From Patescibacteria group bacterium (GTDB lineage: Bacteria; Patescibacteriota; Minisyncoccia; UBA6257; HR35): a stretch of DNA of 64,000 nt. Numbering within the stretch: the stretch's first letter is position 1; each line of letters starts with the position of its first letter. Positions 7,902-44,940 of the stretch are shown in pieces. The stretch is from positions 6,683 to 70,682 of the forward strand of contig DAINRM010000003.1 of assembly GCA_036741875.1 (NCBI GenBank), written 5' to 3'. The position numbers and the translations under genes were made by a program. The notes beneath the pieces are model-generated. The model saw only the letters and a program-made list of their open reading frames with translations. It searched no databases and was not told the origin of the DNA.

Positions 7902-9542
7902 TTAACCTTTTTCTAAAAATTTTTTTAAACTTTCTGCTCTTTCTTTTACTTTTTCCTCTTCCCCTCTTCGAGCAAACTCGTATTCATTAAAATCTACAAA
8001 CAAATATTTTGAAATTAAAGGATAAATTCTTTTAATGATTCTTGCTTTTTCTTGTTCTACTTTTCTATAATCAGGATGACCTTGAGGAGTAGTTCTTAGT
8101 TCCACTTCCCAGAAAAATTCTCGAAGGTTTTGATACTGGATAAATCTAATTTTATGTAAAAACAAAACTGTATATTGAGAAACAAAGATATTAATTTTAC
8201 TTAATTTTTCATAAAGATTTTCAGAAAGCGAGATAATTTTTTCTGCTTCCTTTTCAAGACCTATTTCTTTATAAAAGTCTGGTATTTCAAAGCCTTCTTC
8301 AATACTAAAAATTTTATTTATGAGAGTTTGCATTCTATGTCTTTGTAAATCTCTCCAAGCTCCTATATTTGTTTTTATTTCAAATTTTAGATAAACAAGT
8401 TCTAAAGCTCTTGGCATTTTTTGCCAGCGATATTTTCTATCTTTTAAAATTTCTTCTAAAACTTCTTCTTTTTCTTGAAGAGAAAGCTTTCTCACTTTAC
8501 TTAAAACAAAATCAAAGGGTTCTTTAACTAAGGGATAAAGAAGACCAGCTAAAATTTTATTTTCACCATCTTCATCGTAGGCTAAAAGCTTTATATTTTC
8601 GTTTAGATCTATTTTTTCTTCTTTCCATTTAATTTTTTCTAAAACCTTAAGTAACCTTAAACTTCTTTCGCCTAAATACTTCTGATAATTTATTGATTCT
8701 TCTTTTTCTATCCTTCTTAAAAAAGCAGGTATAACTTTACTTAGCTCTTCATAAGCTCTTTTACCAGCCCATCTTATTTCTTCTAAGGGGTGAAATAAGG
8801 ATCTATTAATTAAATATTCAAAAGCCTGACCGTTTCCAAAAAAAGAAACTTGACCTAGAGTGGCAAGAGGAAGAATTCTTCTACATTCATCAAAAGTTTT
8901 TGCTTTTAAAACCCTTTCTTTTTCTTCAGGGTATTTTTCTATAAGATAATTAAAGTATTTTTCTTTTGAAGCAATATAAAAATCAAAAATAGCATTCATT
9001 ACTTTTTCATAATCATTTTTTAAACTAGCTTTTTCTACTTCTGGGGGTAAGAAGTAAAGATAATGATTATTTACTTTCTCACCAAAATCTACATATCTTG
9101 TTGATTTTTCTATGGGAGCTATACCAATTCTTTGATTTTCAAAATGTTTAATAGCTATTTGTGAAAGAGATGAAAAAACAAGATGAACACCAGCCATTTG
9201 AGATATGGAATCATCTCCGTACTCAGCTAACCATTTTATATAAAAATCTCGTGCTTTGGGATTAGCAAATAAAATTTCATAACCATAGCTATGAAGAAAA
9301 TCAATAAAATTTTTCCAAGCTCTTCCGTATTCTGATTCTAAAAATGGCTTAACAAATTCATTTAAAAAGACAACTCTTAAATCATCTTTGCTTCTTGAAG
9401 CTCGAGAAGATAAAGCTCCAACAACTTCAGGAGGAAGTAAAACAACTGAATAAACTGATTTATCTAAGTTAGTAAAAAAGGGCTCTAGGTAATATTTTTC
9501 TTCTTCAGTAAATTCAGGTTTTTTAAAAAGAATTTCTTCCAT
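7902..9542 (-). CDS. ThyX-like protein (FAD-dependent thymidylate synthase family), apparent tandem duplication of the ThyX fold in one 546-aa chain
   Basis: N-half contains SRASRS (ThyX ARVS-like), KHFENQRIGIAPIEKSTRY (degenerate RHR...SxRY) and CRRILPLATLGQVSFFGNGQAFEYLINRSLFHPLEEIRWAGKRAYEE (ThyX ARxxLPLAT...NxRSLxHF...EIR block). C-half contains AWRDLQRHRMQT (intact RHR) and NLREFFWEVELRTTPQGHPDYRKVEQE. Confidence 0.55.
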   Translation of the reverse strand: MEEILFKKPEFTEEEKYYLEPFFTNLDKSVYSVVLLPPEVVGALSSRASRSKDDLRVVFLNEFVKPFLESEYGRAWKNFIDFLHSYGYEILFANPKARDFYIKWLAEYGDDSISQMAGVHLVFSSLSQIAIKHFENQRIGIAPIEKSTRYVDFGEKVNNHYLYFLPPEVEKASLKNDYEKVMNAIFDFYIASKEKYFNYLIEKYPEEKERVLKAKTFDECRRILPLATLGQVSFFGNGQAFEYLINRSLFHPLEEIRWAGKRAYEELSKVIPAFLRRIEKEESINYQKYLGERSLRLLKVLEKIKWKEEKIDLNENIKLLAYDEDGENKILAGLLYPLVKEPFDFVLSKVRKLSLQEKEEVLEEILKDRKYRWQKMPRALELVYLKFEIKTNIGAWRDLQRHRMQTLINKIFSIEEGFEIPDFYKEIGLEKEAEKIISLSENLYEKLSKINIFVSQYTVLFLHKIRFIQYQNLREFFWEVELRTTPQGHPDYRKVEQEKARIIKRIYPLISKYLFVDFNEYEFARRGEEEKVKERAESLKKFLEKG

Positions 9543-11713: not shown

Positions 11714-12414
11714 TTAAAGAGATAAAAATTTTTACCATCAAAAATACCTTCTAATTTAACTATTAATTTTTCTTCTTTGTTTGTTTTTTTAATTTCATAA
11801 AGACTACCAACCAAAAAGTTAGGAGGAAAGATATTGTCTTGACCATAAGTAAAGATAGGAGAATCTTTTTTTATTTCTCTTGGTGAAGATAAAACAACCT
11901 CTAAAAAACCATCACCATTGGTTTCTCCTATTCCTAAAAACTCACCATTGATATCACTAACATTAAATTCAATTTCTGGATAAAGTAAAGATTTAACTAC
12001 CATAAAGCTTTTATTTTTTTTAAGAACAAAACCTATTAAAGTTAAATTAGAATCAACAATGATATCTCCTTCATTAGCTAAAGGATGAGTTTCAAAATAA
12101 AAATAACCATAAGGATCTCTTTTTAAAAATTCTATTTTTTTAAGATTTTTTAATTCGCTAATTTTTTTATTTTCTTCATCGACAGATTTTAAATTAAGCT
12201 TTATTTGTGAAAGTTCTTGTAAAAGATTAAAATATTTTTCTTGATAAATATCTTCTTTTTTATTTAAAACAAAAATATTTTCCAAAATATCAGTAAAAAT
12301 TTTTTGAATTTTTAAAGAAAATAGTTGGATTTTATTTATTTCTTCAGCAAAAACAAAAGTACTTAAACCAAGAAAAATTAAGGCTATGGTAATATAAATT
12401 AAAAATAATCTCAT
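11710..12414 (-). CDS. mreC: Rod shape-determining protein MreC
   Basis: N-terminal anchor, coiled-coil region, and C-terminal YGQDNIFPPNFLVGSLYEI resembling the conserved MreC G..FP.G.pVG motif. Position after mreB. Confidence 0.65.
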   Translation of the reverse strand: MRLFLIYITIALIFLGLSTFVFAEEINKIQLFSLKIQKIFTDILENIFVLNKKEDIYQEKYFNLLQELSQIKLNLKSVDEENKKISELKNLKKIEFLKRDPYGYFYFETHPLANEGDIIVDSNLTLIGFVLKKNKSFMVVKSLLYPEIEFNVSDINGEFLGIGETNGDGFLEVVLSSPREIKKDSPIFTYGQDNIFPPNFLVGSLYEIKKTNKEEKLIVKLEGIFDGKNFYLFK

Positions 12415-13430
12415 TAGAAAGTAAGTAAGATTTTTTGATAACGACTAAAATCTTCTATTATTTTACCAATTCCTCTAATTACTGAAAACTTTGGTTCTTC
12501 AATTAAATTAACTTTAACTTTTACTTCTTTTTCTAAAAAAGCATCTATCCCTTCAATTAAAGATCCTCCTCCGCCTAAAAAGAGTCCTAAATTACTTATA
12601 TCACCTAAAAGATCGGGAGGGGCAGAATTAATGATATCTTTAAGATGATTGGCTATTTCTAAAAGAGATTCGAAAAGACTTTCGCGAAGGTCTTGAGAAG
12701 TAAAAACTACTTCTTTGGGAAGTCCGGAATAGATATCTCTTCCTTTAACAACGAAACTTGGTGATGTTTTATTATTTATTGAACTTATAGTCATTTTTAT
12801 ATTTTCTGCCTGACTTTCACCAATGATTACCTCATATTTTTCCTTAAGATAATTTATAATATTTTGATTAAATGTCTCTCCACCAATCCTGATACTTTTA
12901 CCTATTACAATTCCACCTAAGGAAATTAAGGCGATATCTGTCGTTCCTCCACCAATATCAACCACCAAAAATCCTTTTGCTTCTTCAATCTCTAAATTAG
13001 CTCCTAAAGCAAAAGCAATTGGTTCTTCAACTAAATAAACTTTTTTAGCCCCAGCACCAATACCTACATCAATAACTCCTCTTTTTTGAACCTCGGTAAG
13101 TCCTAAGGGTACACCAATTAAAAATTTTGTTCCTAAAAGAGCAAAGTATTCTTTTTTAATTTCTTCTAAAAGGTAATTTAAAAAATAAAGAGCTTCATCA
13201 AAATTAGTCACAATTCCATGGGTTAGTGGTTTAATTACTTCTATATTTTCAGGATTTCTTCCCAACATTTTTCTTGCTTCCTCACCGATAGCGACAATTA
13301 AGTTTTGTCTTTTATTAAAAGCGATTACTGTAGGTACTTCTTTTAAAAATCCTTTATCTTTGAGGTAAAGCTTCGTTGAATGAGTTCCTAAATCTACTCC
13401 TAAAAAAATTTCTTTAAGAAATTTAATCAT
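12414..13430 (-). CDS. mreB: MreB/Mbl-like actin homolog
   Basis: KFLKEIFLGVDLGTHSTKLY...DIGGGTTDIALISLGG...LGGGGSLIEGI are actin-fold phosphate/adenosine motifs. Start is taken at the internal ATG (MIKFLKE), which abuts the proS stop. The ORF track begins 20 codons upstream. Confidence 0.8.
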   Translation of the reverse strand: MIKFLKEIFLGVDLGTHSTKLYLKDKGFLKEVPTVIAFNKRQNLIVAIGEEARKMLGRNPENIEVIKPLTHGIVTNFDEALYFLNYLLEEIKKEYFALLGTKFLIGVPLGLTEVQKRGVIDVGIGAGAKKVYLVEEPIAFALGANLEIEEAKGFLVVDIGGGTTDIALISLGGIVIGKSIRIGGETFNQNIINYLKEKYEVIIGESQAENIKMTISSINNKTSPSFVVKGRDIYSGLPKEVVFTSQDLRESLFESLLEIANHLKDIINSAPPDLLGDISNLGLFLGGGGSLIEGIDAFLEKEVKVKVNLIEEPKFSVIRGIGKIIEDFSRYQKILLTF

Positions 13431-13432
13431 TT

Positions 13433-14857
13433 TTAATAACTTTGAGCAAAAAGCCAACGACGTTTTGCTTCTTTTTGGCAATAAATACATTTACCTTTTT
13501 CTTCATTAAATTCAAGAGGTAAACATCTGGTTGTTGCTTTTGTTTCTTCTTTAATCTTAGTTTCACATTCTTCTCTTTCACACCAAAAAGCACTTAAAAA
13601 TCCCCTTTTTTCTTCCATAACTTTTTTAAACTCCTCATAAGAATTAACCTCAAATAAATTTTCCAAAGTGAAATTTCTTGATTTTTCTAAAAGATTAGAA
13701 AGATATTCTTCTTCTAATTTTTTTAAATTTTCTAAAAGATTTTCTAAACTTAAACTTGATTTTTCACGTATGTCTCTTCTAAAAAAAGTAATTTTCTTTT
13801 CTTCTATTTCTTTTTTACCTATTTCTAAACGAAAAGGCGCTCCTTTAAGTTCCCATTTGTTAAATTTAAATCCTGGTGTTTCTTCTGAAATATCATAAAA
13901 AACAGAAATATTTTTTTCTTTTAAAACTTCGATAATTTTTTTAGCGAAAAGATCTATTTTTTCATTATTTTCTCCATCGTAAATAGGTACAATGACAAAT
14001 TCATAAGGAGCTATTTTAGGAGGTAAAATTAGACCATATTCATCTCCGTGAACCATAAAAAGAGCACCTAGTGATCTAGTAGAAAAACCCCAAGAATTTT
14101 GCCAAACATATTTTAAAGACATATCTTTGTCTTGAAATCTAATTTCGAAAGGTATAGAAAAGTTTTGACCCAAATCATGAGAAGTACAACCTTGAAGAGC
14201 TTTTCCATCGGGCATAAGAATTTCATAAGTAAAAGTTTTAAGAGCTCCTGCAAATTTTTCCGATTCTGATTTTTGTCCAGCAAAACCAAAAATACCCAGA
14301 TATTCTTGGTAAACCTTTAAATAAACTTCTAAGGCTTTTAAAACTGTTTTCAAAGAATCTTCATGAGTAGCGTGAGCTCCGTGTCCTTCTTGCCATAAAA
14401 ATTCTGTGTTTCTTAAAAAAGGAAATGGTCTTTTTTCCCAACGAATTACATTACACCATTGATTGATAATTAAAGGAAGGTCTCGATAAGATTTTATCCA
14501 TCTTGAAAAAGCATCATACATAATTGTTTCCGATGTTGGTCTGACAATAAGCTTTTCACTTAACTCTTCACCTCCAGCATAAGTCACTACAGCTACTTCT
14601 GGAGAAAAGCCTTCTAAATGTTCTTTTTCTTTTTTTAAAAACCCCTCAGGAATAAATATAGGAAAATAAGAATTTAAAGCACCAATTTCCTCTTTTATAA
14701 ATTTATCTAAAATTTTTTGAAGATTTTCCCACAAAGCATACCCATAAGGTTTAAAAATAATGGTTCCTTTTACCGGACCATAATCAAAAACTTCTGCTTC
14801 TTTTAAAATTTCTAAATACCATTCAGAAATATTTTCTTTGTTTCTCGGATAAAACAT
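13433..14857 (-). CDS. proS: Prolyl-tRNA synthetase, archaeal/eukaryotic-type
   Basis: 474 aa. Starts MFYPRNKENISEWYLEILKEAEVFDY..., has class II motifs and a C-terminal Zn-binding tail CIYCQKEAKRRWLFAQSY ending in Tyr. Confidence 0.9.
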   Translation of the reverse strand: MFYPRNKENISEWYLEILKEAEVFDYGPVKGTIIFKPYGYALWENLQKILDKFIKEEIGALNSYFPIFIPEGFLKKEKEHLEGFSPEVAVVTYAGGEELSEKLIVRPTSETIMYDAFSRWIKSYRDLPLIINQWCNVIRWEKRPFPFLRNTEFLWQEGHGAHATHEDSLKTVLKALEVYLKVYQEYLGIFGFAGQKSESEKFAGALKTFTYEILMPDGKALQGCTSHDLGQNFSIPFEIRFQDKDMSLKYVWQNSWGFSTRSLGALFMVHGDEYGLILPPKIAPYEFVIVPIYDGENNEKIDLFAKKIIEVLKEKNISVFYDISEETPGFKFNKWELKGAPFRLEIGKKEIEEKKITFFRRDIREKSSLSLENLLENLKKLEEEYLSNLLEKSRNFTLENLFEVNSYEEFKKVMEEKRGFLSAFWCEREECETKIKEETKATTRCLPLEFNEEKGKCIYCQKEAKRRWLFAQSY

Positions 14858-16594: not shown

Positions 16595-17441
16595 AGCTTA
16601 AAATTAAACTTGTAAGTTGAAGGAACCAATTATAATCTTGATCAGTTTCACTGTAAAGATCAAGAAGGTCTTTTATTTCAAAGAGATGTTTTTGATTAAT
16701 TTCTTTTAAAGAAACAGCTTTTTCTATAAGTTCTTTTCTTTTTTTAAGAATTAAAAGCTCAATGATTTCTTTATAAATTTTATTAATTTTTTCGCTAAAA
16801 TCTAAATTTTTTTCTAAGTCAAAATAGTTAAAAACATTTCTTAAAAGCTCTATTTTTTCTAAGGAAGTTGCTTGAAAATAAAAATTTTTATAAAAAGTAA
16901 TTTTTTGCTTATTTTTAATAAGATTATATGCTTTACCTGGTTGATAAGGAAAAAAGGAAAAAGCAAAATCAATGTCTGCTTCTGAAAAATTTTTTTCCTT
17001 AAGAAATTTTAAAGTAAGTTCTTGAGGAACTAAAGAAAATTTAATTTCTAAACTTCGAGATCTTATTGTAGGTAAAATTTTCTTTTTTTGATGGGAAATA
17101 AAAACAAAAAGAGTATCTGAAACTGGTTCTTCAATAGTTTTTAAAAGCACGTTTTGACTTTCTTCTTTAAATTTATGTATTTCATCGATTAGAATAATTC
17201 TTTTATTTTTTGGTTTAGTTAAAGTAATTTTACCTATGAATCTGGCTGAATCGATACTAAAAATTTTTTTATCTGATTTAAAGATTATATATTCCCATTC
17301 ATTTTTTTTGTCTTTTAAAATTTCTTTCACAAAAGAAAATTTTCCTATTCCTTCAGGACCAAAAATTAAAAGAGCTCCTCTTTTTTCTAATAATAACCAT
17401 TCTTTTACTAAGTTTTGTTCTTTTTCATTACCATAAATCAT
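16587..17441 (-). CDS. holB: DNA polymerase III delta-prime subunit-like AAA+ clamp-loader protein
   Basis: LLIFGPEGIGKFSFVKEIL (Walker A-like), IILIDEIHKF (Walker B), TLFVFISHQKKKILPTIRSRS (sensor / SRC-like). Confidence 0.7.
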   Translation of the reverse strand: MIYGNEKEQNLVKEWLLLEKRGALLIFGPEGIGKFSFVKEILKDKKNEWEYIIFKSDKKIFSIDSARFIGKITLTKPKNKRIILIDEIHKFKEESQNVLLKTIEEPVSDTLFVFISHQKKKILPTIRSRSLEIKFSLVPQELTLKFLKEKNFSEADIDFAFSFFPYQPGKAYNLIKNKQKITFYKNFYFQATSLEKIELLRNVFNYFDLEKNLDFSEKINKIYKEIIELLILKKRKELIEKAVSLKEINQKHLFEIKDLLDLYSETDQDYNWFLQLTSLILSYG

Positions 17442-18445
17442 GAAGTTAATCTTTTATAAATATCAATTTTTTCTAAGACCTTACCTGTTCCTCTAGCTAC
17501 AGCAAAAAGAGGATTTTCAGCAATAAAAGTTTTAATAGAAGTTTGTGAAGAAATAAGTTCGTCAATTTTTCTTAAAAGAGCTCCACCACCAGAAAGAACA
17601 ATACCTTTTTCCATAATGTCAGCCACAAGTTCTGGTGGTGTATTGGCTAAAACTCTCTTAATGCCACTGATAATTTCTTTAAGTTCCTTTTGAAGAGCTT
17701 CAGCTACATGAGAAGAAGTTATCTCCACACTTTTAGGAAGTCCGGTTAGATAATCAATGCCATTAACAATCATTTTAAGATCTTCTTGATTTTTATGATT
17801 TTTAAAAGGTAAAGCACTGCCTATTTGGATTTTAATCTGTTCTGCAGTTCTTTCTCCTATAGCTAAATTAAATTTTCTTTTAAGATACTCTCTAATAGCT
17901 TCATCCATTTTATCGCCAGCAATTTTAAGAGATTCAAAAGTCACAATACCACCTAAAGAAATAACAGCTATTTCTGTAGTTCCTCCTCCGATATTGACAA
18001 TCATATTTCCTGAAGGTGTTTGAATAGGCATTTCTGCACCAAGAGCAGCTAAAAGGGGTTCTTTGATAGGATAAACTTCACGAGCACCAGCTTCAAGACC
18101 TGCATCAATGATAGCTTTCTTTTCTGTAGAACTAATACCTGCAGGTACAGAAACAACTAAAGTTGGTTTAAAAAATTTAGTGATTTTGATTTTATTTAAG
18201 AAATATTTTAAAATAGCTAAAGTAGCTTGGTAATCAGCAATAACACCCTCTTTAAGTGGTCTATAAATCTTAATTTCTCTGGGGGTTTTACCGATCATCT
18301 CTTTAGCTTCTCTACCAACAGCAATAATTTTTCTAGATTTTTCATCATAAGCAACAACCGTGGGTTCGCTAATTATCACTCCTTTTTCTGGAAGATAAAC
18401 GTTAGAATTGGCTGTACCCAGGTCAATACCTATTTTAAGAAACAT
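17438..18445 (-). CDS. mreB: Rod shape-determining protein MreB
   Basis: MFLKIGIDLGTANSNVYLPEKGVIISEPTVVAYDEK...NIGGGTTEIAVISLGG...LSGGGALLRKIDELI is canonical MreB. Confidence 0.9.
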   Translation of the reverse strand: MFLKIGIDLGTANSNVYLPEKGVIISEPTVVAYDEKSRKIIAVGREAKEMIGKTPREIKIYRPLKEGVIADYQATLAILKYFLNKIKITKFFKPTLVVSVPAGISSTEKKAIIDAGLEAGAREVYPIKEPLLAALGAEMPIQTPSGNMIVNIGGGTTEIAVISLGGIVTFESLKIAGDKMDEAIREYLKRKFNLAIGERTAEQIKIQIGSALPFKNHKNQEDLKMIVNGIDYLTGLPKSVEITSSHVAEALQKELKEIISGIKRVLANTPPELVADIMEKGIVLSGGGALLRKIDELISSQTSIKTFIAENPLFAVARGTGKVLEKIDIYKRLTS

Positions 18446-20183
18446 GGATAAAAAAATTTATCTAATTGCTAATATTATACCATTAATTACGTTGCCTCCC
18501 AACTCTCCTGATTACTTTACCTATTTTACCGAAAAGACTATAAATAAAGGAAACATTGTTGAAATTGATTTTAGAAAAAAGAAGGTTTTAGGTATTGTTT
18601 ATGAAATAAAAAGTTTAGAAAAGGTAAGAAAAGATATTTTAGAAATTTTACCTAAAATTAAAAAGGTTTTAAGGGTTGTTAAAGAAAAGAGTCTTATTGA
18701 CGAAGATGAGTTTGAATTTGCTAAATTCTTGTCTAATTATTTTGGTTTTTCCTATTCTTCTGTTTTTAATTTTTTTTTCTTTCCTTCAAAAAAATTTTTA
18801 GATTTAAATTTTGAAGAGATTAAACTAAAGAAAAAAAGAGATTTTAAGATTAATTTTTTTGAAAATTTGAACTCAAAAATATTAAGAAAAAAAAGAAGTT
18901 TAATCATTGTTCCTGAAAAAAGTTTTTCTAAAGAAGTTGAAGAGTTTTTAAAAAAAGAAGGTGTCTCTTATAAAATCTTCATTCCTCCATGGAGCAAAAA
19001 CAAAATTGAAGAAATTTCAAGGGAACTTATTGAGAATAAAAAAATTGCCTTAATTATTTCTAAAAATTTGATTTTTTTGCCCTGGAAAAATATAGATCAA
19101 ATAGTAGTTTATCGAGAAGGAAGTTTTTTCTACTATGACTCTTTTAAAAAAATAAATTTTGATTATCGAGAAATAATTAAAAAACTATCTGAAATAAAAA
19201 AAATCGAACTAACTTTTATAGATAAATTTCCTAGTTTAGAAAAAATAAAAGCTTTAAAAATAAAACCTTCATTAAATTTAAAATTCAATGTCTTAAACAG
19301 TTTAGATGAAGCCCTGCAAAGCATTAAAAATTTTTCAAGGGTTATTATCTTTCTTCCGCAAAAAATTTCTTCAGTAGTAAGATGCTTAAATTGTTTTAAT
19401 TTGCTTAAATGCCCCAAATGTGAAGGTAATCTTTTTTTTGACGAAGGAAAATTTTTTTGTTTTCAATGTCTTAAAGAAGTTAGATTAGAAAAAAATGAAT
19501 GTCCTTTTTGTTTAAAACCCCTAGAAATATCTTTTAAAAAAATAGGTGCTAGAGTTTTATATGAATATCTTAAAAAAAATTATCATGAGGTTTATTTAGT
19601 AGAAAAAAAAGGTAAAAAGTTTTTTGAAAATATTGAAAAAAAAGAAAGATTTATTCTTTTAGGAAGTTTAAGTTTAATTTCTGGTTATTTAAAAGAAGCT
19701 GATGTTTCTTATTTCTTTAATTTTGAAAATTTTTATCTCTCCTCGGATCCCTTTTTAAGAGAAAAGTATTTAAGAATTTTGAATTTTTTAAAGGAAAAAA
19801 CAAAAAGAGTATTTTTAATTTCTTCAATAAGAAATCCTGAATGGGAAAAGTCTTTTTTAGAAGGTGATTACATAGAAAAACTTCTTAAAGAAAGGGAACT
19901 TCTTCGGTTAAATCCTTTTTACAAAGTAATTAAGCTTATTAAAAGTTCAAGTAATTTTTATCTTCTTCAAAATAATATGGTTAAAATTTCTAAAGAACTT
20001 AAAGAAAAAATTAAAGGAAAGGATGTAGAAGTTTTAGGACCTATTTTTTCTAAACCTTATCGGATAAAAAAAAGATTTTTCTTAGAAATAATTCTCAGAA
20101 GTCAAAAAGAAGAAATAAAAATAAGAGAAATTGTAAAAGAGTATGGTTTTGAAAAAATTAAAATTAATCCTTTAGAGATTTAA
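18444..20183 (+). CDS. priA: Primosomal protein N' (PriA) homolog with degenerate helicase ATPase motifs
   Basis: PriA-like N-terminal 3'BD block (IYLIANIIPL...GNIVEIDFRKKKVLGIVYEI) and LIIVPEKSFSKEVEEF (PriA LVLVPEI block). Double Cys4 Zn finger CLNCFNLLKCPKCEG...CFQCLKEV...CPFC. C-terminal blocks ILLGSLS, NPFYKVIKLI, VLGPIFSKPYRIKKRFFLEIIL. Walker A GxGKT is absent and DEEH is replaced by YREG. Confidence 0.6.
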   Translation: MDKKIYLIANIIPLITLPPNSPDYFTYFTEKTINKGNIVEIDFRKKKVLGIVYEIKSLEKVRKDILEILPKIKKVLRVVKEKSLIDEDEFEFAKFLSNYFGFSYSSVFNFFFFPSKKFLDLNFEEIKLKKKRDFKINFFENLNSKILRKKRSLIIVPEKSFSKEVEEFLKKEGVSYKIFIPPWSKNKIEEISRELIENKKIALIISKNLIFLPWKNIDQIVVYREGSFFYYDSFKKINFDYREIIKKLSEIKKIELTFIDKFPSLEKIKALKIKPSLNLKFNVLNSLDEALQSIKNFSRVIIFLPQKISSVVRCLNCFNLLKCPKCEGNLFFDEGKFFCFQCLKEVRLEKNECPFCLKPLEISFKKIGARVLYEYLKKNYHEVYLVEKKGKKFFENIEKKERFILLGSLSLISGYLKEADVSYFFNFENFYLSSDPFLREKYLRILNFLKEKTKRVFLISSIRNPEWEKSFLEGDYIEKLLKERELLRLNPFYKVIKLIKSSSNFYLLQNNMVKISKELKEKIKGKDVEVLGPIFSKPYRIKKRFFLEIILRSQKEEIKIREIVKEYGFEKIKINPLEI

Positions 20184-20786
20184 TTTACTTTTAACCTCTT
20201 CCCAAATTCTTTTATGAACCTCTTTGACATTTCCTTCTCCATTAATTTCTTTTATTTCTCCTCTTTTTTTCAAAAAATTAATAGCGGGTAAAGTATACTT
20301 TTTAAAAAACTCAAGTCTTATTCTAATTTTTTCTTCTACATCTAAATTGTCTTCTCTTTTTCTTAAAAGAGCTCTTTTAAAAACTTCTTCTTCACTTATT
20401 TTGAGATAAATAAAAAGATAATTTAATTTTAACTTTTTAACTAGGTTAAGATAAGTTTTGGCTTCTTTGATGCTTCGAGGACCGCCTAAAATAATAAGGC
20501 TTTTTTTGTTATCTAAGTTTTTCTCTATTCTGTTTTTCATAAGATAAGAAACTAAATCAAAAGAAACAAGTCTTCCACTAAATCTATTTTCTTTTTCCTT
20601 TTTAATGTTAATATTTTTCTTCCCTACTTTTAAATAGTTCTTTTTATAACTTTTGAAAAATTCATCTAAAACCTCCGAAACATTTATTTTTTTAGCTTTA
20701 AGTTTTTTAGCTAAAAGTGAAGCTTGTGTATCTTTACCAGAAGCAGGTTCTCCTGTTAAAAAAACTACGATTTTTTTAAATTTCAT
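20172..20786 (-). CDS. adk: Adenylate kinase-like nucleoside monophosphate kinase (divergent; short, no recognisable LID insert)
   Basis: P-loop VVFLTGEPASGKDTQASLLAKKL (compare adenylate kinase GPPGAGKGTQA). Lies immediately after secY, the canonical adk position. Confidence 0.55.
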   Translation of the reverse strand: MKFKKIVVFLTGEPASGKDTQASLLAKKLKAKKINVSEVLDEFFKSYKKNYLKVGKKNINIKKEKENRFSGRLVSFDLVSYLMKNRIEKNLDNKKSLIILGGPRSIKEAKTYLNLVKKLKLNYLFIYLKISEEEVFKRALLRKREDNLDVEEKIRIRLEFFKKYTLPAINFLKKRGEIKEINGEGNVKEVHKRIWEEVKSKLNL

Positions 20787-36337: not shown

Positions 36338-39300
36338 TTACTCTAGAAATAACATATTTTCTCCGTAAATTTTAAAGAAATAATCCTTATCCTCACATTT
36401 TATAAAGAAATAAACATTTTCTGGCTCTATTATCTCAAACTCATAAATTTTTTGAGGCTCTAAGAAGTAGTTTTCATATTCATCTCGGTAAAATTCATAA
36501 TAGGCAAAATTATATTCGTTTTTGCAAATTTTATCTCCTGTTTCTTTGTATTTTAAATTTAAAATCTTTTCTCCTTCTTCACTTTTAACTTTTATCTTTA
36601 AATCATTAAAACCTTGACCATCATCTCTTTTTTCTATAATTCTCAAATTGATAAGTTGATAACCCTTAGAATTATTTTCAAATGAAATTTTTTTTACTTC
36701 TCCGTTTTCATCTTCAAAAAACTTTATTTCTTTTAAGGGAATTTCGGGGTTATTATTGTATCCTGAAAATTTATAAGATAAAGTCGTTGAGGAGATTTCT
36801 GTTTCTTCTGACTTATAAAGAGAAAGATTAATTACATAATCCAGATTCAAAAAAAGATCACTAGGGCTTAAATCAATTTTAAATGAATTAAAGGTTAACG
36901 GTTTAAATCTTATTTCATCTAGATAAGAATTATTTAAAACATAAAAAAGAGATGTGGTTTCATAATAAGCTGGAGAAAGCCAACTCAAAACAAGTTCAAA
37001 TTGATGATAGGGTTTTTCTTTTGTTTCTTTAATACTATTATCAAAGGAAATTAAGGTATAAGTAGTAGAATCTTTTTTAAGTTCTAAATTGGGTTTATTA
37101 ATAGTTTTAAAAACTTTTTTTACGATCTGAGAATTGTAGGGAACTCCATCAGAAAAAACAAAAGTCTCTCTTATTAAATAGTTATAATCGTCATCAAAAG
37201 CTATATAGCCATTTCCAAGATTTTCTAACTCTTCTTGATTTAAAACTTCTTCATGGCTAATTTTTTTTCTTTCTATCACTTTATTTTCAGGTGGATTTTC
37301 TAAGCAATTAAAATTTTCTACATCACCCCAACATAAATAATCAATTAATTTATCATTATTATCAAAAAGTGCTAAACCATTATCATAAGTTAAACCATAA
37401 ACTGATGATGTAGGATAGATATAATCTGCAGAAATATTAAGGGTATTACATGTTTCCTTATTCACGATTAAAAAATAAGAAAATGGTTGAATAACAGCTT
37501 TAATTTTAGTAGGAGCCACTAGATTTAAATTGCTATAATTTCCATTCCTGGTTATCTTTTTAAGATACCAACCCGAAAGATCTATAGGAAATTCGTTGGG
37601 GTTGTAAAATTCAATAAATTCTCCTTGATTATTATCAACTCCCTTAACTATTTTGACTTTAGAAATAAGTATTTTTCCCTCATTTCTAGCATTTTCAAAG
37701 TTATCTTGTGAATGATCTATTACATGACATTCCGCTATTTGATCTTGAAAACATAAGTTTTTAGGAAATAAAACTTCAGTAGATGTTGAAGCTTGATTTT
37801 CATCATCAATAAGATCTTTAATAAAAACAAAAAACTTTATTGAAGAAGGCAAGCAATTTTCAAAGGGGATTTTAATTAAATAATCTTTAGTAGAAGAGCT
37901 TAAAGAAAAAGTGGAAGTTAGATAATTAAACAAAGAAAGATCGCTTAGGTCTGAAGAGGTTGAAACTTTAATTTCAAAATAATAATTTGATGAAAAATCT
38001 TGATCAGCGTTTAAGGAAAAATTAATTTCCAAGAATTTACCCTCTGATGAAGTTGAAATATTAACATCAAAATTTTGAAAAGTTATTTCACTTAAATCAA
38101 CAAAGTCATTTCGAGGAAGATCGGTAAAGAATGAATTTTTAGGAGAAGGTTGATGAAGCCATAAATCTTTTGAGTTATTATCAGTATCTTGAAAGTTTTT
38201 TCTTTGAATTGATTTATTATCAAAAGATTGAGCTATAAAGGGCGAATTTTCATATTGATAAATTTTTTCAATATTATCTCCATAACCAATTAAATCTGAA
38301 ATTTCTCCATTTGGTTTTCTTAAGATAATAACGTTATTATTAGCGATTGAATAACTTTCTGCATAAGATAAATCTCCTTGATATTTTTCTTTTGTTGATG
38401 AAGAAGTAATAAGGAAATAACTATAAGGTTTTATTTTGCCTTTAAATTTTGAAGAAGGAATAAGAGTTGTTAATTTTGGAGTTGAGTTTGGGTTTTGCCT
38501 TGAGGCATATTTTTCTAAACTCCAGCAAGTTAAATCTATTTCTTCGTTATTAGGGTTATAAAGCTCTATAAATTCATCTTTAGTCTCATCATCAGTTTCA
38601 AATTGAATTTCATTGATAATTATTTTGGGATAGTTTTTATTCTTGTAATCATCACAAAAGTCTTTTTTGCTACTTAAATTTGAAAAACTTCGGCCTCCAC
38701 CATAACTTAAAGTAATAGGCTTATTATTATTATTTTCTTGATTTATATTATTTTGAGAAAGTTCTTTATCAGATGTCTTTTGGGTTGAAGTAGATAAAAT
38801 TTTTGTAGAAGTTGTTAAAATTTTTGAAATTTCATTTAAGACATTTGCTATATTTGAATTTGAATTATCTTGACTTTCTTTGTTTTTACGTTGATTTTTG
38901 GGTTTTTTATAAACCTCGTAAGAATAAAATGTAATGTCTCGATTTGAAGTAATTAAATTTTGATTTAAATCTCGGTTTTGATTTTGATTTTCTAAAGAAG
39001 TTAGCTTTTTGTTTTCTGAAGTTAGGGCTTTATTCGTTTTAACTTCAGTAATGTTTTTGGAAGTAATAATAGCCGGAGTAGAATTAAAATATTTAACTGA
39101 CATAGTCTTAATTGACATTTCTAAAAATCTTTTTTTCATTTCAAGTTCAGCTAATTTCCTTTCTTTTTGTAAAGCAACTTTATCTTTAATACATTCCTTC
39201 TTTTTCTTAATAGGCCAATCATTATCAGTACATTCAGTATAATTTGTTCTAATTTTTGAAAGAGAGCAAGAAAAATCGGTGGAAGGACAATTATAAACAA

Positions 39301-39922
39301 AAATTGTGTCATCTAAAATTTGATCCCATTCTTCACGTTTACTTTGATAATCTTTAAAATATTCTAAATTAGGATTATATCTTCTAATTGCTTTTTCTTC
39401 ATCTTCGTTAATTCCATCATACTTTAATTTTATTGCTGCTGCATAAAGAGAATCTTCTAAATTCCAGGGATTTTTATTTTGAAGTTCTTTATATTGAAGC
39501 CAAGTTGTAGGTTGAAACTGAGTATAGCCAATCCCAAAATCAGGAGAAAATGGAACTTTATTAATATCTAAGCCTAAATTAGAAGTAATTTTTTCTAAAG
39601 TAGAATACTGTTGATGACACCATTGAGTTCGAGCTTCGATGGAATAACAATTTGTACCATTTATAGGTGGTATTAAACTTTTTAAATATTCGCAATACTT
39701 AACACAAGCAGTAATATTTTTATCTTTCGAACCTAAATTTCTACCTAAATCTTTTCCAAATCCACTTTCTTTTTCAATTATTGTCAAAATATAACTTGGT
39801 GTTTTTAATCCCACAATTTTGTATGCCTTATCTATTGCTTCAATAACTCTTTTCCATTCTAAAGCAAAAACTAAACCAATAAATAAAAACAAAAGCAAAA
39901 TAATTGCTTTTGTTTTATTCAT
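36338..39922 (-). CDS. Large (1194 aa) secreted/cell-surface protein: N-terminal MltB-like lytic transglycosylase domain, low-complexity N/S/T-rich linker, and two lamin-tail domains (LTD)
   Basis: Signal peptide MNKTKAIILLLFLFIGLVFA. LT-like block IIEKESGFGKDLG...GIGYTQFQPTTW (compare MltB ES...GAMGQxQFMPSTW). LTD1 KIIINEIQFETDDETKDEFIELYNPNNEEIDLTCWSL. LTD2 KILISKVKIVKGVDNNQGEFIEFYNPNEFPIDLSGWYL. Confidence 0.6.
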   Translation of the reverse strand: MNKTKAIILLLFLFIGLVFALEWKRVIEAIDKAYKIVGLKTPSYILTIIEKESGFGKDLGRNLGSKDKNITACVKYCEYLKSLIPPINGTNCYSIEARTQWCHQQYSTLEKITSNLGLDINKVPFSPDFGIGYTQFQPTTWLQYKELQNKNPWNLEDSLYAAAIKLKYDGINEDEEKAIRRYNPNLEYFKDYQSKREEWDQILDDTIFVYNCPSTDFSCSLSKIRTNYTECTDNDWPIKKKKECIKDKVALQKERKLAELEMKKRFLEMSIKTMSVKYFNSTPAIITSKNITEVKTNKALTSENKKLTSLENQNQNRDLNQNLITSNRDITFYSYEVYKKPKNQRKNKESQDNSNSNIANVLNEISKILTTSTKILSTSTQKTSDKELSQNNINQENNNNKPITLSYGGGRSFSNLSSKKDFCDDYKNKNYPKIIINEIQFETDDETKDEFIELYNPNNEEIDLTCWSLEKYASRQNPNSTPKLTTLIPSSKFKGKIKPYSYFLITSSSTKEKYQGDLSYAESYSIANNNVIILRKPNGEISDLIGYGDNIEKIYQYENSPFIAQSFDNKSIQRKNFQDTDNNSKDLWLHQPSPKNSFFTDLPRNDFVDLSEITFQNFDVNISTSSEGKFLEINFSLNADQDFSSNYYFEIKVSTSSDLSDLSLFNYLTSTFSLSSSTKDYLIKIPFENCLPSSIKFFVFIKDLIDDENQASTSTEVLFPKNLCFQDQIAECHVIDHSQDNFENARNEGKILISKVKIVKGVDNNQGEFIEFYNPNEFPIDLSGWYLKKITRNGNYSNLNLVAPTKIKAVIQPFSYFLIVNKETCNTLNISADYIYPTSSVYGLTYDNGLALFDNNDKLIDYLCWGDVENFNCLENPPENKVIERKKISHEEVLNQEELENLGNGYIAFDDDYNYLIRETFVFSDGVPYNSQIVKKVFKTINKPNLELKKDSTTYTLISFDNSIKETKEKPYHQFELVLSWLSPAYYETTSLFYVLNNSYLDEIRFKPLTFNSFKIDLSPSDLFLNLDYVINLSLYKSEETEISSTTLSYKFSGYNNNPEIPLKEIKFFEDENGEVKKISFENNSKGYQLINLRIIEKRDDGQGFNDLKIKVKSEEGEKILNLKYKETGDKICKNEYNFAYYEFYRDEYENYFLEPQKIYEFEIIEPENVYFFIKCEDKDYFFKIYGENMLFLE

Positions 39923-42637: not shown

Positions 42638-43372
42638 ATGGAAAACAAAGAAATTCAGAGTATTTATTTTGAAATTAGAGCTGGTGTAGGTGGCGAAGAG
42701 GCTTCTCTTTTTGCTCGTGATCTTTGGAGAATGTATAGTAAGTTTTTTGATAGAAGGGGTTGGAAATATAGAATCTTAGATATCTCTGAAAGCGATTTAG
42801 GTGGCATAAAAACTTTAGTAGCGGAGGTTACTGGTGAACGTGTTTATGATCTTTTAAAACAAGAAGCTGGTGTTCATCGAGTTCAAAGAATTCCTATCAC
42901 AGAAAAAAGTGGAAGAATTCATACCTCTACTGCTTCAGTGGCTATTTTACCAAAACTTTCTTTACCTCAAATTCAAATAAAAGAATCTGATATAGAAATA
43001 GAATTTTTTAGATCTGGTGGACCTGGAGGACAAAATGTAAATAAGGTAGAAACTGCTGTAAGAATAAGACATAAACCCACAGGAATTGTTGTTTCTTGTC
43101 AAGTAGAAAGAAGTCAGCAAAGAAATAGAGAAATTGCTATGGAAATGTTAAAAAACAAAATATGGCAAATGGAACAAGAAAAAATTTTAGGAAACTTAAC
43201 AGAAGAAAGAAGAAAACAAATAGGTTCGCAAGAAAGATCTGAAAAAATTAGAACTTACAACTTTCCTCAAAATAGAGTGACTGACCACAGAATAAATAAA
43301 AGCTGGTATGATTTAGACGAAATTATGGAAGGAAAATTAGATAAAATAATTGAAGCTTTCCAAAAAAAGTAA
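42638..43372 (+). CDS. prfA: Class I peptide chain release factor, RF1-like (PxT = PIT, GGQ present), lacking the N-terminal domain 1
   Basis: 244 aa. Aligns to E. coli RF1 from about residue 107 onward: [22 protein letters not shown]; [20 protein letters not shown]; [28 protein letters not shown]; [13 protein letters not shown]. Only 35 nt separate it from rpmE upstream. Confidence 0.75.
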
Positions 43373-43470: not shown

Positions 43471-44259
43471 TTATAAATATCCGATTTCTTTAAGATAATC
43501 TCTATACTCCCATTCCCAAAGAGTTTTACAACCAAGAAAGGCTTTAAAATCTTCTTCAACATTATCAAAAGCTTTAAGTTCCCATTCTCCTAAAATATCA
43601 CCAAACTTATGATCGCAAAAGGCATCACCACCTTCTATTTTTGAACCCATCTTTCTTAATTTCATCACCGCTCCACATTTTTCACAAATTCTTTTTTGAT
43701 TAATTCTTAAAACATATCTCTTTTCTAAGGGTTTAAGAAGAGGAATTTTTCTTCCTTTTTCATCTCTAAAAAATCCTTCTTCATTTAAGGCCATAAAATA
43801 AGCTGATGTTTGAAGTCTATAATCCTCGTAAATACTTTGAGAAGTTTTAATATCAATTAAAGAAAATTGCCCATCAAGTTCACCAATAATATCAAAAGTT
43901 CCAGCATAACGATGAAGAAAATGAACTGTTTTTTTCTCTAACCAGTCTTCTCTGGAAAAAAAAGAGTGATTTTTAAGAAAATCTTCGAAAGCTTTTTTAA
44001 TACCTTCATATTCTGGAGGAACAATAATTTGTCTTCTTTGTATAAAGCTTTCAATAATTTCATGAATTATTTTCCCTTCATCAGCTGCTTTTATTTTTTT
44101 GTTAGTAGCTTCTTTAAAGTTTGGTGCCTCAGCATAAAAATAGTAAAGAGCAGGCTTACTTTTAATTTCACAAATTTTTGTTACCCGTGGATACCAGGTG
44201 TTATCTATTATATAACCAAATTCTTTTTTAAATTCTTCAAGATTATTTATTTTATTCAT
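43471..44259 (-). CDS. PD-(D/E)xK nuclease of the RecB/Cas4-like family with a putative 4-Cys cluster
   Basis: GTFDIIGELDGQFSLIDIKTS (D...D/E-x-K), QTSAYFMAL (QxxxY). Cys pattern: one N-terminal Cys (RVTKICEIK) plus CEKCGAVMKLRKMGSKIEGGDAFC at the C-terminus. Confidence 0.6.
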   Translation of the reverse strand: MNKINNLEEFKKEFGYIIDNTWYPRVTKICEIKSKPALYYFYAEAPNFKEATNKKIKAADEGKIIHEIIESFIQRRQIIVPPEYEGIKKAFEDFLKNHSFFSREDWLEKKTVHFLHRYAGTFDIIGELDGQFSLIDIKTSQSIYEDYRLQTSAYFMALNEEGFFRDEKGRKIPLLKPLEKRYVLRINQKRICEKCGAVMKLRKMGSKIEGGDAFCDHKFGDILGEWELKAFDNVEEDFKAFLGCKTLWEWEYRDYLKEIGYL

Positions 44260-44262
44260 CTT

Positions 44263-44940
44263 TTAAAAATATCTTAAATAATTCGTCCAAAGTTCATAAA
44301 TTTTAGCTGTGGTTAAAACATCGCCTAAAGCGTAATAAACTAAACTTTTATAATCTTTATTTTTTATAATATCTCTTACTTTTTTACCATCAAATTTTTC
44401 CTTAGGATCTTCTAAGCCAAAAGAAAAGGCTGTCAATTTTAAACTTAGTTTTTGAATTCTATTATTAAAACTTAGTTTTTCATAAAGATCGATATGATAT
44501 TCTTTATCTAAAATAGCGTAGGTTGGTCTAATTTTGTGTTTTAAAGAACGATAAAGTAAAAAAGGTATATCAAATTTATTACCATTGAAAGTGATAATTT
44601 CCTGATAATTAGGAACAATTTCCCAAAATTTTTTTATTAATTCTTCTTCTGAGCTAAACCTTTTAAAATCTATCAAATTTTCTGACCAATCTTCAATTTC
44701 CTCTTTACTTTGAAAATAAACAGCTCCTCTTTGAGTATCTGGATTATAAAAACTAATAGCCACTATTTCGCTAAATTGTGGTAAGAGAGAGATTTTTTCA
44801 TTAATAATTTCAATAAGATCTTCTCTTGATTTTTCTTTGAAATCATTAGAAAATTTTTCTAAAAGATATTCTTGAATTTCTATGGGAAGTTCAGCAAATT
44901 CTGGTCCATAAGTTTCGATGTCGAAAATTAATTTTTGCAT
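44263..44940 (-). CDS. DEDDy-type 3'-5' exonuclease (RNase H-like fold, related to the PolB exonuclease domain; YprB/RNase_H_2-like)
   Basis: Exo I LIFDIETYG, Exo II ITFNGNKFDIPFLLYRS, Exo III YYALGDVLTTAKIYE. Confidence 0.65.
   Translation of the reverse strand: MQKLIFDIETYGPEFAELPIEIQEYLLEKFSNDFKEKSREDLIEIINEKISLLPQFSEIVAISFYNPDTQRGAVYFQSKEEIEDWSENLIDFKRFSSEEELIKKFWEIVPNYQEIITFNGNKFDIPFLLYRSLKHKIRPTYAILDKEYHIDLYEKLSFNNRIQKLSLKLTAFSFGLEDPKEKFDGKKVRDIIKNKDYKSLVYYALGDVLTTAKIYELWTNYLRYF

What the first reader, a model, noticed from the sequence alone, without database searches (positions are those of the whole stretch)
18444..20183. PriA homolog with degenerate helicase ATPase motifs (probable pseudo-helicase)
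The protein keeps the PriA architecture end to end: N-terminal 3'-DNA-binding block, the LIIVPE block, a double Cys4 zinc-binding insertion (CLNCFNLLKCPKCEG...CFQCLKEV...CPFC), and the C-terminal domain blocks. Walker A (GxGKT) is not present. The DEEH box reads YREG. Motif VI (GRAGR) is not recognisable. If real, PriA here could act only as a structure-specific DNA-binding and primosome scaffold protein without ATP-driven unwinding, or replication restart is organised differently.
Basis: seen in the sequence. Interest (0 to 1): 0.5.

Follow-up and report, generated by a model that had tools for sequence, protein, structure and literature searches.

The report
Motor-dead PriA in a CPR bacterium
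This gene encodes a well-conserved copy of the replication-restart protein PriA that keeps its fork-recognition parts but has lost every ATP-motor motif, a known kind of "pseudohelicase" (first shown in Deinococcus) that appears here in a more stripped-down form and looks widespread in the ultra-small Patescibacteria.

Summary

It is not an artefact or a pseudogene. No motif hides in another frame. Ten independent genomes carry the same uninterrupted gene in conserved synteny. dN/dS is 0.13, and the dead lobes are as constrained as the DNA-binding domains.

It is not a one-off. Of 160 nearest full-length sequences, 145 lack Walker A. The few with taxon labels are mostly Patescibacteria. The window's Paceibacterota family is the most eroded branch.

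Best reading: an ATP-independent fork-recognition and helicase-recruitment scaffold, like D. radiodurans PriA and E. coli priA300. This rests on sequence and predicted structure only. I could not test whether an intact priA exists elsewhere in the genome.

Verdict: new variant of a known kind, moderate interest.

The parts
18444..20183 (+). PriA-like gene (579 aa plus stop), the whole feature
18444..18797 (+). 3'-DNA-binding domain (residues 1-118). Pocket residues F25/T26/Y27 and K73 correspond to E. coli F16/D17/Y18 and K61.
   Evidence: Pfam PF17764 E=3.5e-10. hhalign mapping. K73 is invariant and Y27 near-invariant. Pocket residues as listed in PMC5778457. omega 0.126.
18798..18896 (+). 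Short glycine-free segment (residues 119-151) where the winged-helix domain and the beta1/P-loop/alpha1 (Walker A) would lie. No GxGKT is present.
   Evidence: hhalign deletion over 'LLxGVTGSGKTE'. The HMMER alignment starts after GKT. Zero Gly in residues 119-157. Linker 28 aa against 132 in E. coli and 54-133 in canonical PriAs. Least constrained part, omega 0.38 over 17 codons.
18849..19292 (+). RecA-like lobe 1 remnant (residues 136-283)
   Evidence: Predicted beta-alpha-beta fold. Aligned to HD1 of PriA. omega 0.122.
18900..18917 (+). Motif Ia, LIIVPE (residues 153-158), retained
   Evidence: Aligns to E. coli LVMVPE. P157 is near-invariant.
19110..19121 (+). Motif II (Walker B) position: Y-R-E-G in place of D-E-E-H (residues 223-226)
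   Evidence: Three independent alignments. Family variants are YREG, FREG, YKEG and similar, and none of 24 keeps D-E.
19125..19169 (+). Aromatic- and basic-rich loop after motif II (residues 228-242, FFYYDSFKKINFDYR). It is the most conserved stretch of lobe 1.
   Evidence: F229, Y230, F234 and Y241 are invariant; K235, F239, D240 and R242 are near-invariant. Aligns to E. coli DSSYKQQEGWRYHAR. The loop wedges into the fork junction in E. coli PriA (PMC10175261; PMC5778457).
19293..19883 (+). RecA-like lobe 2 remnant (residues 284-480). Motifs IV and V are substituted. The motif VI GRxGR is deleted between T453 and K454 (about nt 19800-19805).
   Evidence: omega 0.101 outside the CRR.
19377..19523 (+). 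Cysteine-rich region (residues 312-360) with four CxxC pairs, predicted to bind two zinc ions
   Evidence: Eight invariant Cys. Pfam Zn_ribbon_6 E=2.4e-4. 157 of 160 relatives keep four CxxC. Aligns to the E. coli CRR.
19884..20180 (+). PriA C-terminal domain (residues 481-579)
   Evidence: Pfam PF18074 E=3.9e-7. hhalign. omega 0.121.

Best explanation
The gene is the Patescibacteria (Paceibacterota) version of the replication-restart protein PriA, and it has become a pseudohelicase. It keeps the PriA fold and the elements PriA uses to recognise an abandoned fork:
- the 3'-end-binding pocket of the N-terminal domain;
- the aromatic-rich loop of lobe 1, which wedges into the junction;
- the two-zinc cysteine-rich region;
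- lobe 2 and the C-terminal domain, which together with the CRR form the ssDNA pore in E. coli PriA.

It has no phosphate-binding loop, no Mg2+/catalytic acids and no arginine finger. It therefore cannot hydrolyse ATP at the canonical site and cannot translocate or unwind.

The most likely mechanism is that it binds forks or D-loops in a structure-specific, ATP-independent way and serves as a landing pad for reloading the replicative helicase. It would do this either directly or through SSB or a loader.

What is shown: architecture, motif loss, conservation, purifying selection and lineage-wide distribution. What is inferred: lack of ATPase activity, fork binding, and the helicase-recruitment role.
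For: PriA identity:
- Pfam 3'BD and PriA_C.
- Family profile against PDB hits only PriA chains, at about 1e-16.
- hhalign against canonical PriAs: probability 100%, E=6e-55, end to end.
- AlphaFold2 model pLDDT 85.9, pTM 0.85.
- Foldseek top 9 hits are all PriA, E down to 2.4e-29 and TMq up to 0.73.

Motor loss:
- Motifs I to VI are substituted or deleted.
- No glycine in the P-loop segment.
- No hidden motif in any frame.

Still functional:
- dN/dS 0.13 overall. Lobe 1 is 0.122 and lobe 2 is 0.101, similar to adk (0.102) and rrf (0.106) in the same genome pair.
- Orthologs down to 32-35% identity occur in 13 GTDB genomes.
- The holB / mreB-paralog / priA synteny is conserved.

Fork-recognition elements kept:
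- K73 (E. coli K61) is invariant and Y27 (E. coli Y18) near-invariant. The aromatic loop and all eight Cys are invariant.

Precedent:
- D. radiodurans PriA lacks ATPase and helicase activity but binds ssDNA and forks and interacts with DnaB (PMC4504706).
- E. coli priA300 (K230R) is ATPase-dead yet behaves much like wild type in vivo and supports restart in vitro (PMC5778457).
Against: - No biochemistry exists for this protein or any Patescibacteria PriA.
- The rest of the genome could not be searched, so an intact second priA cannot be excluded. Only the 64-kb window was cleared.
- No partner (DnaB, loader, SSB) lies in the window to support the recruitment step.
- The protein falls far below the NCBIfam PriA equivalog cut-off, 72.5 against 230 bits.
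- It evolves much faster than its neighbour. It is 35% identical in a genome pair where the adjacent MreB paralog is 74% identical. Its function may therefore have drifted.
- A weaker second nucleotide site has been proposed for E. coli PriA but never located (PMC5778457).
Confidence: 0.68

Rival explanations
1. Accessory paralog. The genome also encodes an intact PriA helicase elsewhere, and this motor-dead copy is a specialised or regulatory partner, for example a fork-binding competitor or adaptor.
For: The genome outside the 64-kb window could not be searched. A few Walker-A-positive PriAs of the GPxxSGKT / DEEQ / GRVNRP type (P0041, P0147, P0160, P0162) fall inside the Walker-A-less clade in the rough NJ tree. 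Active forms therefore exist among close relatives.
Against: Profile searches with canonical, intermediate and family PriA models find only this one ORF in the window. The gene sits in a stable housekeeping neighbourhood shared across deep divergences. From general knowledge, priA is normally single-copy, and these roughly 0.6-0.7-Mb genomes are highly reduced. Sources annotate the Walker-A-less relatives as primosomal protein N'.
Confidence: 0.1
2. Repurposed protein. The PriA scaffold has been kept for a DNA- or protein-binding job unrelated to replication restart, and restart is absent or organised differently in these episymbionts.
For: It diverges fast relative to its neighbours (35% against 74% identity). 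The WH and P-loop region is lost. It scores well below the equivalog cut-off. No known primosome partners are identified nearby.
Against: The conserved residues are the fork-recognition ones: the 3'-end pocket K73/Y27, the junction-wedging aromatic loop, the CRR and the CTD. The conserved neighbour holB (clamp-loader delta') is a replication gene.
Confidence: 0.14
3. Cryptic NTPase. The protein still binds or hydrolyses a nucleotide through non-canonical residues or a second site.
For: [quoted passage not shown] One glutamate, E225, survives in the motif II position.
Against: The whole glycine-rich loop, the motif II Asp and first Glu, motif III and the motif VI arginines are missing together. 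In E. coli the single K230R change already abolishes ATPase (PMC5778457).
Confidence: 0.04
4. Artefact or decaying pseudogene. A frameshift, assembly error or recent inactivation produced the apparent motif loss.
For: A/T homopolymer runs of 7-9 nt occur in 18.75-19.05 kb.
Against: The ORF is uninterrupted and the other frames are full of stops. No motif is encoded in any frame. The same structure occurs in at least 24 family members and 10 independently assembled genomes. dN/dS is 0.13. The full-length fold is predicted with confidence.
Confidence: 0.01

Closest known systems
Canonical PriA / primosomal protein N' (E. coli, K. pneumoniae; PDB 4NL4, 6DGD, 6DCR, 8FAK)
   Same: Same domain order and fold: 3'BD, two RecA-like lobes, a CRR with eight Cys inserted in lobe 2, and a CTD. 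Motif Ia, the 3'-end pocket Tyr/Lys and the aromatic-rich loop are retained.
   Different: No Walker A. YREG replaces DEEH. Motifs III-V are substituted and motif VI is deleted. The 3'BD-to-lobe 1 linker is 28 residues, so there is no winged-helix domain. The protein is 579 aa against 732. About 14-16% identity. It falls below the TIGR00595 cut-off.
Deinococcus radiodurans PriA pseudohelicase (Lopper et al. 2015, PMC4504706)
   Same: A naturally occurring PriA with non-consensus motifs I and II, conserved across a lineage. The experimentally shown properties (no ATPase or unwinding, ssDNA and fork binding retained, DnaB interaction) are what is proposed here.
   Different: In Deinococcus-Thermus the Walker A box is still alignable, with Lys changed to Arg. 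Here the loop is unrecognisable and glycine-free, and motifs III-VI are lost too. The lineage is different (Patescibacteria). An independent origin is inferred from this, not tested with a joint tree. This protein has no biochemistry.
E. coli priA300 (K230R) and K230A/D alleles
   Same: ATPase-, helicase- and translocase-dead PriA that still assembles the primosome. Cells behave much like wild type (PMC5778457). This shows the scaffold function is separable from the motor.
   Different: These are laboratory point mutants in an otherwise intact helicase core acting with PriB, DnaT and DnaC. The window protein is a natural, multi-motif erosion, and its partners are unknown.
Walker-A-less PriA homologs of other Patescibacteria (e.g. 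Falkowbacteria P0181, Minisyncoccia P0168, 'Patescibacteria group' P0182), about 636 aa
   Same: Same clade in a rough tree. They also lack GxGKT and GRxGR and keep the 3'BD, CRR and CTD.
   Different: They are less eroded. About half keep the motif II Asp, 20 of 121 keep D-E (DEEE is the commonest form), and the group consensus retains motif IV (NRRG) and the motif V TQ. The window family has lost these as well and is about 60 aa shorter.

Membership tests
PriA (primosomal protein N') family | N-terminal 3'-DNA-binding domain with a 3'-end pocket (E. coli Tyr18, Lys61) | tested here: met
   Pfam PF17764 E=3.5e-10. hhalign maps Y27 to Y18 and K73 to K61. K73 is invariant and Y27 near-invariant. 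Pocket residues from PMC5778457.
PriA (primosomal protein N') family | SF2 core of two RecA-like lobes | tested here: met
PriA (primosomal protein N') family | Cysteine-rich region with eight Cys (two Zn) inserted in lobe 2 | tested here: met
   C314, C317, C323, C326, C339, C342, C353 and C356 are invariant and align to the E. coli CRR. Zinc binding itself was not tested.
PriA (primosomal protein N') family | PriA C-terminal domain | tested here: met
   Pfam PF18074 E=3.9e-7, above the gathering score. hhalign.
PriA (primosomal protein N') family | Catalytic helicase motifs I (GxGKT), II (DExH) and VI (GRxGR) | tested here: not met
   Absent in the HMMER, MAFFT and hhalign alignments, absent in all six frames, and the P-loop segment has no Gly.
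PriA (primosomal protein N') family | Winged-helix domain between the 3'BD and lobe 1 | tested here: not met
   The linker is 28 aa against 132 in E. coli. This is not a strict family criterion: canonical PriAs in the sample have linkers of 54-133 aa.
PriA (primosomal protein N') family | Score above the curated equivalog cut-off (NCBIfam TIGR00595) | tested here: not met
   72.5 bits against a cut-off of 230.35.
PriA pseudohelicase (as defined for D. radiodurans, PMC4504706) | PriA architecture with non-consensus Walker A and B, conserved in a lineage | tested here: met
   None of 24 family members has GK[ST] or D-E at the aligned positions.
PriA pseudohelicase (as defined for D. radiodurans, PMC4504706) | No ATP hydrolysis and no duplex unwinding in vitro | not testable with these tools
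   Needs purified protein. Inactivity is inferred from the loss of all catalytic residues.
PriA pseudohelicase (as defined for D. radiodurans, PMC4504706) | Retained ssDNA and fork binding, and interaction with the replicative helicase | not testable with these tools
   Only indirect support: conserved pocket, aromatic loop, CRR and CTD, and purifying selection.
PriA pseudohelicase (as defined for D. radiodurans, PMC4504706) | Same lesion and lineage (recognisable P-loop with Lys to Arg; Deinococcus-Thermus) | tested here: not met
   No recognisable P-loop. The relatives that carry a taxon label are mostly Patescibacteria: Paceibacterota, Parcubacteria, Minisyncoccia. No Deinococcus sequence was included in a joint tree.

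The most novel reading that the evidence does not exclude
Loss of the PriA motor is not a curiosity of one gene. It is an old, clade-wide trait of a large part of the Patescibacteria (CPR). 145 of the 160 nearest full-length sequences lack Walker A, and about two state changes are needed on a rough tree. The window's Paceibacterota 'mini-PriA' (about 576 aa, no WH, no P-loop, motifs I-VI erased) is the end point. Isolated examples also occur in Dictyoglomus and Ratteibacteria.

If this is right, a whole bacterial radiation performs replication restart with a purely passive PriA. These proteins would then define the minimal fork-recognition and helicase-recruitment core. That bears on the open question of whether PriA can act alone in bacteria lacking PriB, PriC and DnaT.
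Probability: 0.5. Interest if true: 0.6.

Novelty: new variant of a known kind. Interest (0 to 1): 0.45.

Why it matters
PriA is treated as a near-universal bacterial helicase. The only documented natural exception is Deinococcus-Thermus, where the protein was shown to be a pseudohelicase.

This locus, and the roughly 145 related sequences found with it, indicate that a second and much larger group has dispensed with the motor altogether, more radically than Deinococcus. That group is the ultra-small, mostly episymbiotic Patescibacteria.

Three consequences follow:
- It supports the view that the conserved, selectable function of PriA is fork recognition and primosome nucleation, not unwinding.
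- It gives a natural minimal PriA (no WH, no ATP site) for structural and biochemical dissection.
- It raises a concrete question about how helicase reloading works in reduced genomes where only PriA is recognisable.

It also matters for annotation. These proteins fall below equivalog thresholds and are variously called 'hypothetical protein' or 'replication restart helicase'.

Tried and rejected
- A single-sequence phmmer of the protein against PDB found only RING and zinc-ribbon noise. The family profile was needed to reach PriA.
- A phmmer of E. coli PriA against the window's six-frame ORFs found nothing, not even this ORF. It was replaced by profile searches.
- Frameshift or alternative-frame Walker A: rejected.
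- Pseudogene: rejected by dN/dS and orthologs.
- 'WH loss is specific to the dead-helicase family': rejected. Several canonical PriAs in the sample also have short linkers.
- Taxon labels for the nearest Walker-A-positive relatives and for the sister sequences could not be obtained. The cluster look-ups mostly returned unnamed metagenome proteins.
- Literature searches for PriA together with CPR, Patescibacteria, Parcubacteria or Saccharibacteria found no paper addressing this. The library is incomplete, so this is absence of evidence only.
- A second priA elsewhere in the genome could not be tested.
- Side lead: the 244-aa release factor was suspected of an RF2-type programmed frameshift. This was rejected. 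L31 lies directly upstream and the protein is an N-terminally short RF1-type factor.
Full report
**What is there**

The window is very AT-rich (about 25-33% GC) and encodes housekeeping genes typical of a reduced bacterium: ribosomal proteins, SecY, adenylate kinase, MreB/MreC/PBP2/RodA, tRNA synthetases, EF-Tu/Ts, LepA and GyrA.

At 18444-20183 on the + strand lies an uninterrupted ATG-started ORF of 579 aa. Its closest relative in the GTDB species set is 88% identical and comes from a 'Candidatus Paceibacterota' MAG. Further orthologs (57-32% identity) come from genomes labelled Patescibacteria group, Parcubacteria, Pacebacteria, Paceibacter and Minisyncoccia. They include the complete 680-kb genome AP024681.1. 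The organism is therefore a member of the Patescibacteria (CPR).

**Is it PriA?**

Yes, by architecture and fold.
- Pfam finds PriA_3primeBD (residues 21-109, E=3.5e-10) and PriA_C (491-565, E=3.9e-7), both above gathering scores. It also finds a weak double zinc ribbon. It finds no DEAD, Helicase_C or ResIII domain.
- NCBIfam's PriA equivalog TIGR00595 is the best hit, but at 72.5 bits against a 230-bit cut-off.
- A single-sequence search of PDB sees only zinc-finger noise. A profile of 13 family members hits only PriA chains (6DCR, 4NL4, 6DGD, 8FAK; E about 1e-16).
- A profile-profile comparison with 15 canonical PriAs gives probability 100%, E=6.2e-55 and 563 aligned columns from N- to C-terminus.
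- An AlphaFold2 model built on the family alignment is confident (pLDDT 85.9, pTM 0.85).
- Foldseek's nine best PDB matches are all PriA (E=2.4e-29 to 1.2e-21, TMq 0.62-0.73).

**Are the motor motifs really gone?**

- Walker A. The HMMER alignment to E. coli and K. pneumoniae PriA starts immediately after the T of GSGKT. hhalign places 'LLxGVTGSGKTE' in a deletion. Residues 119-157 (LDLNFEEIKLKKKRDFKINFFENLNSKILRKKRSLIIVP) contain no glycine. From established knowledge of P-loop NTPases, this is incompatible with a phosphate-binding loop.
- Motif Ia (LIIVPE) is kept.
- Motif II. DEEH aligns to Y223-R224-E225-G226 in three independent alignments. Both the Mg2+-binding Asp and the catalytic Glu are replaced.
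- Motif III (GSAT) reads IDKF, motif IV (LNRRG) reads LPQK, and motif V (GTQMLAKG) reads GSLSLISG.
- The motif VI GRAGRAG segment is deleted between T453 and K454.
- The linker between the 3'BD and lobe 1, which carries the winged-helix domain in E. coli (132 residues), is 28 residues here. Canonical PriAs in my sample also vary (54-133), so WH absence is not peculiar to dead PriAs. The family simply has the shortest linker.

**Artefact or pseudogene?**

No.
- No GK[ST], DExH or GRxGR is encoded in any of the six frames of 18301-20300. There are no Ns, and the other frames carry 28-78 stops.
- Ten orthologs from independently assembled genomes have the same uninterrupted ORF without a Walker A.
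- Against the 88% ortholog, dN/dS is 0.13 (dS 0.46).
- By domain, omega is 0.126 (3'BD), 0.122 (lobe 1), 0.101 (lobe 2), 0.172 (CRR) and 0.121 (CTD). Neighbouring genes in the same genome pair give 0.102 (adk), 0.106 (rrf), 0.067 (secY), 0.054 (holB) and 0.023 (mreB paralog). Only the 17-codon linker where the WH and P-loop used to be is relaxed (0.38), and that is a small sample.
- The neighbourhood RRF / holB (delta') / MreB paralog / divergent priA-like is conserved in a Parcubacteria genome. There the PriA-like protein is only 35% identical while the MreB paralog is 74% identical.

**How far does this extend?**

An exhaustive profile search of 1.84 billion cluster representatives returned 8432 hits (E<=1e-3), of which the best 150 can be inspected. 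I pooled these with the first search's hits, giving 160 full-length sequences. By aligned motif positions and by alignment-free regexes they sort as follows.

| Group | n | Median length | Motif state |
|---|---|---|---|
| Window family | 24 | 576 aa | Motif II YREG, FREG, YKEG and similar; none keeps D-E |
| Other Walker-A-less | 121 | 636 aa | No GxGKT or GRxGR; about half keep the motif II Asp, 20 keep D-E (DEEE commonest); group consensus retains motif IV NRRG and the motif V TQ |
| Canonical | 15 | 666 aa | GKT, with DEEH/DEEQ in 14 and GRxGR-like in 13 |

Of the 160, 157 keep four CxxC pairs.

Few sequences carry a source label. The labels present among Walker-A-less sequences are Minisyncoccia, Falkowbacteria, 'Patescibacteria group' and Parcubacteria, plus, outside the CPR, Dictyoglomus sp. 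and Ratteibacteria.

In a rough neighbour-joining tree the window family is monophyletic and nested deep within the Walker-A-less group. Walker A presence needs only about two changes. Only four canonical sequences, of a GPxxSGKT / DEEQ / GRVNRP type, fall inside that group. This tree is crude. Long-branch attraction among degenerate sequences could exaggerate monophyly.

**Mechanism**

In E. coli PriA, fork specificity comes from several elements (PMC10175261; PMC5778457):
- the 3'BD pocket, which binds the nascent leading-strand 3' end (Asp17, Tyr18, Gly37, Lys61);
- a lobe 1 aromatic-rich loop wedged into the junction;
- a pore for lagging-strand ssDNA framed by the CRR, lobe 2 and the CTD;
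- a poorly ordered WH contact with parental duplex.

In the window protein, K73 aligns with Lys61 and is invariant. Y27 aligns with Tyr18 and is near-invariant. T26 replaces Asp17, as it does in the consensus of the canonical sample (FTY). The loop FFYYDSFKKINFDYR is the most conserved stretch of lobe 1, and the eight cysteines are invariant.

The parts needed for ATP-independent fork recognition are therefore kept under selection, while every catalytic residue is gone. E. coli priA300 (K230R) shows that motor-dead PriA still assembles a primosome and supports near-wild-type growth (PMC5778457). D. radiodurans PriA, a natural pseudohelicase, binds ssDNA (Kd about 215 nM) and forks (about 109 nM) and interacts with DnaB without hydrolysing ATP (PMC4504706).

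I therefore propose that this protein is a passive fork-recognition scaffold that nucleates reloading of the replicative helicase. Architecture, motif loss, conservation and distribution are shown. Inactivity, fork binding and partner recruitment are inferred.

**Rivals**

- An accessory paralog alongside an intact PriA elsewhere in the genome cannot be excluded. Only the window was searchable, and canonical, intermediate and family profiles find just this one ORF there.
- Repurposing for a non-restart role is possible given the fast divergence. However, the conserved residues are the fork-recognition ones.
- A cryptic NTPase is unlikely given the simultaneous loss of motifs I, II, III and VI.
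- Artefact or pseudogene is refuted.

**Comparison and novelty**

The protein meets the architectural criteria of the PriA family: 3'BD, two RecA-like lobes, CRR and CTD. It fails the catalytic criteria and the curated equivalog threshold. It is best described as a PriA-derived pseudohelicase.

That concept is known from Deinococcus-Thermus (2015). There the Walker A box is still recognisable, with Lys changed to Arg. Here the loop is unrecognisable and motifs III-VI are lost too, in an unrelated and much larger radiation.

I found no paper in the searchable library connecting PriA motif loss with CPR or Patescibacteria.

I rate it a new variant of a known kind, with moderate interest (0.45). 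The interest would rise if the clade-wide loss and sole-copy status were confirmed.

Noticed in passing
window 42638-43372 (+); also L002 21660 onward: The release factor is only 244 aa. It has the C-terminal part of the PCRF domain (profile positions 98-194), the RF-1 domain, GGQ and an RF1-type 'PIT' tripeptide, but lacks the roughly 100-aa N-terminal domain 1. It is not a programmed frameshift, because rpmE (L31, 42390-42602) lies directly upstream. A 246-aa form occurs in Parcubacteria KatS3mg097.
   Followed up: partly
window 18443-18446: The start codons of the priA-like gene (+) and the divergent MreB paralog (-) overlap within a CATG. There is no intergenic region for promoters, so each promoter must lie inside the other gene. 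In KatS3mg097 the same pair is 45 bp apart.
   Followed up: no
window 17438-18445 (-) and 12414-13490 (-): There are two MreB paralogs. One sits in the mreBCD-PBP2 cluster. The second sits between holB and the priA-like gene, and is 74% identical to its counterpart in a genome where the PriA-like protein is only 35% identical.
   Followed up: partly
proteins P0258 (Dictyoglomus sp., 705 aa) and P0288/P0289 (Ratteibacteria, 602 aa): PriA homologs outside Patescibacteria and Deinococcus-Thermus also lack GxGKT and GRxGR at the aligned positions. Motif II is DEEE in Dictyoglomus and DSYT in Ratteibacteria. PriA motor loss may have happened in several phyla.
   Followed up: partly
window 7902-9542 (-): A ThyX (Thy1) homolog of 546 aa with two matched Thy1 stretches, about twice the usual length. 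It may be a tandem-fused flavin-dependent thymidylate synthase.
   Followed up: no
window 36338-39922 (-): A 1194-aa protein whose only Pfam hit is two Lamin Tail Domains (E=1.7e-26). It is probably a large surface protein.
   Followed up: no
window 49607-55287 (-): A cluster of glycogen and alpha-glucan genes: GDE_C amylo-1,6-glucosidase-like, a PF05693 (eukaryote/archaea-type) glycogen synthase of 593 aa, GH57 and a GT4/GT5 glycosyltransferase.
   Followed up: no
window 43471-44940 (-): Adjacent genes for a PD-(D/E)XK nuclease-like protein (262 aa, weak hit) and a PolB-exonuclease-like / RNase H-fold 3'-5' exonuclease (225 aa). These are possible DNA-repair functions in a genome with a motor-less PriA.
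   Followed up: no
window 58025-58678 (-): A 217-aa protein with T4SS pilin / TrbC(VirB2)-like hits. This is of possible interest for an episymbiotic lifestyle.
   Followed up: no
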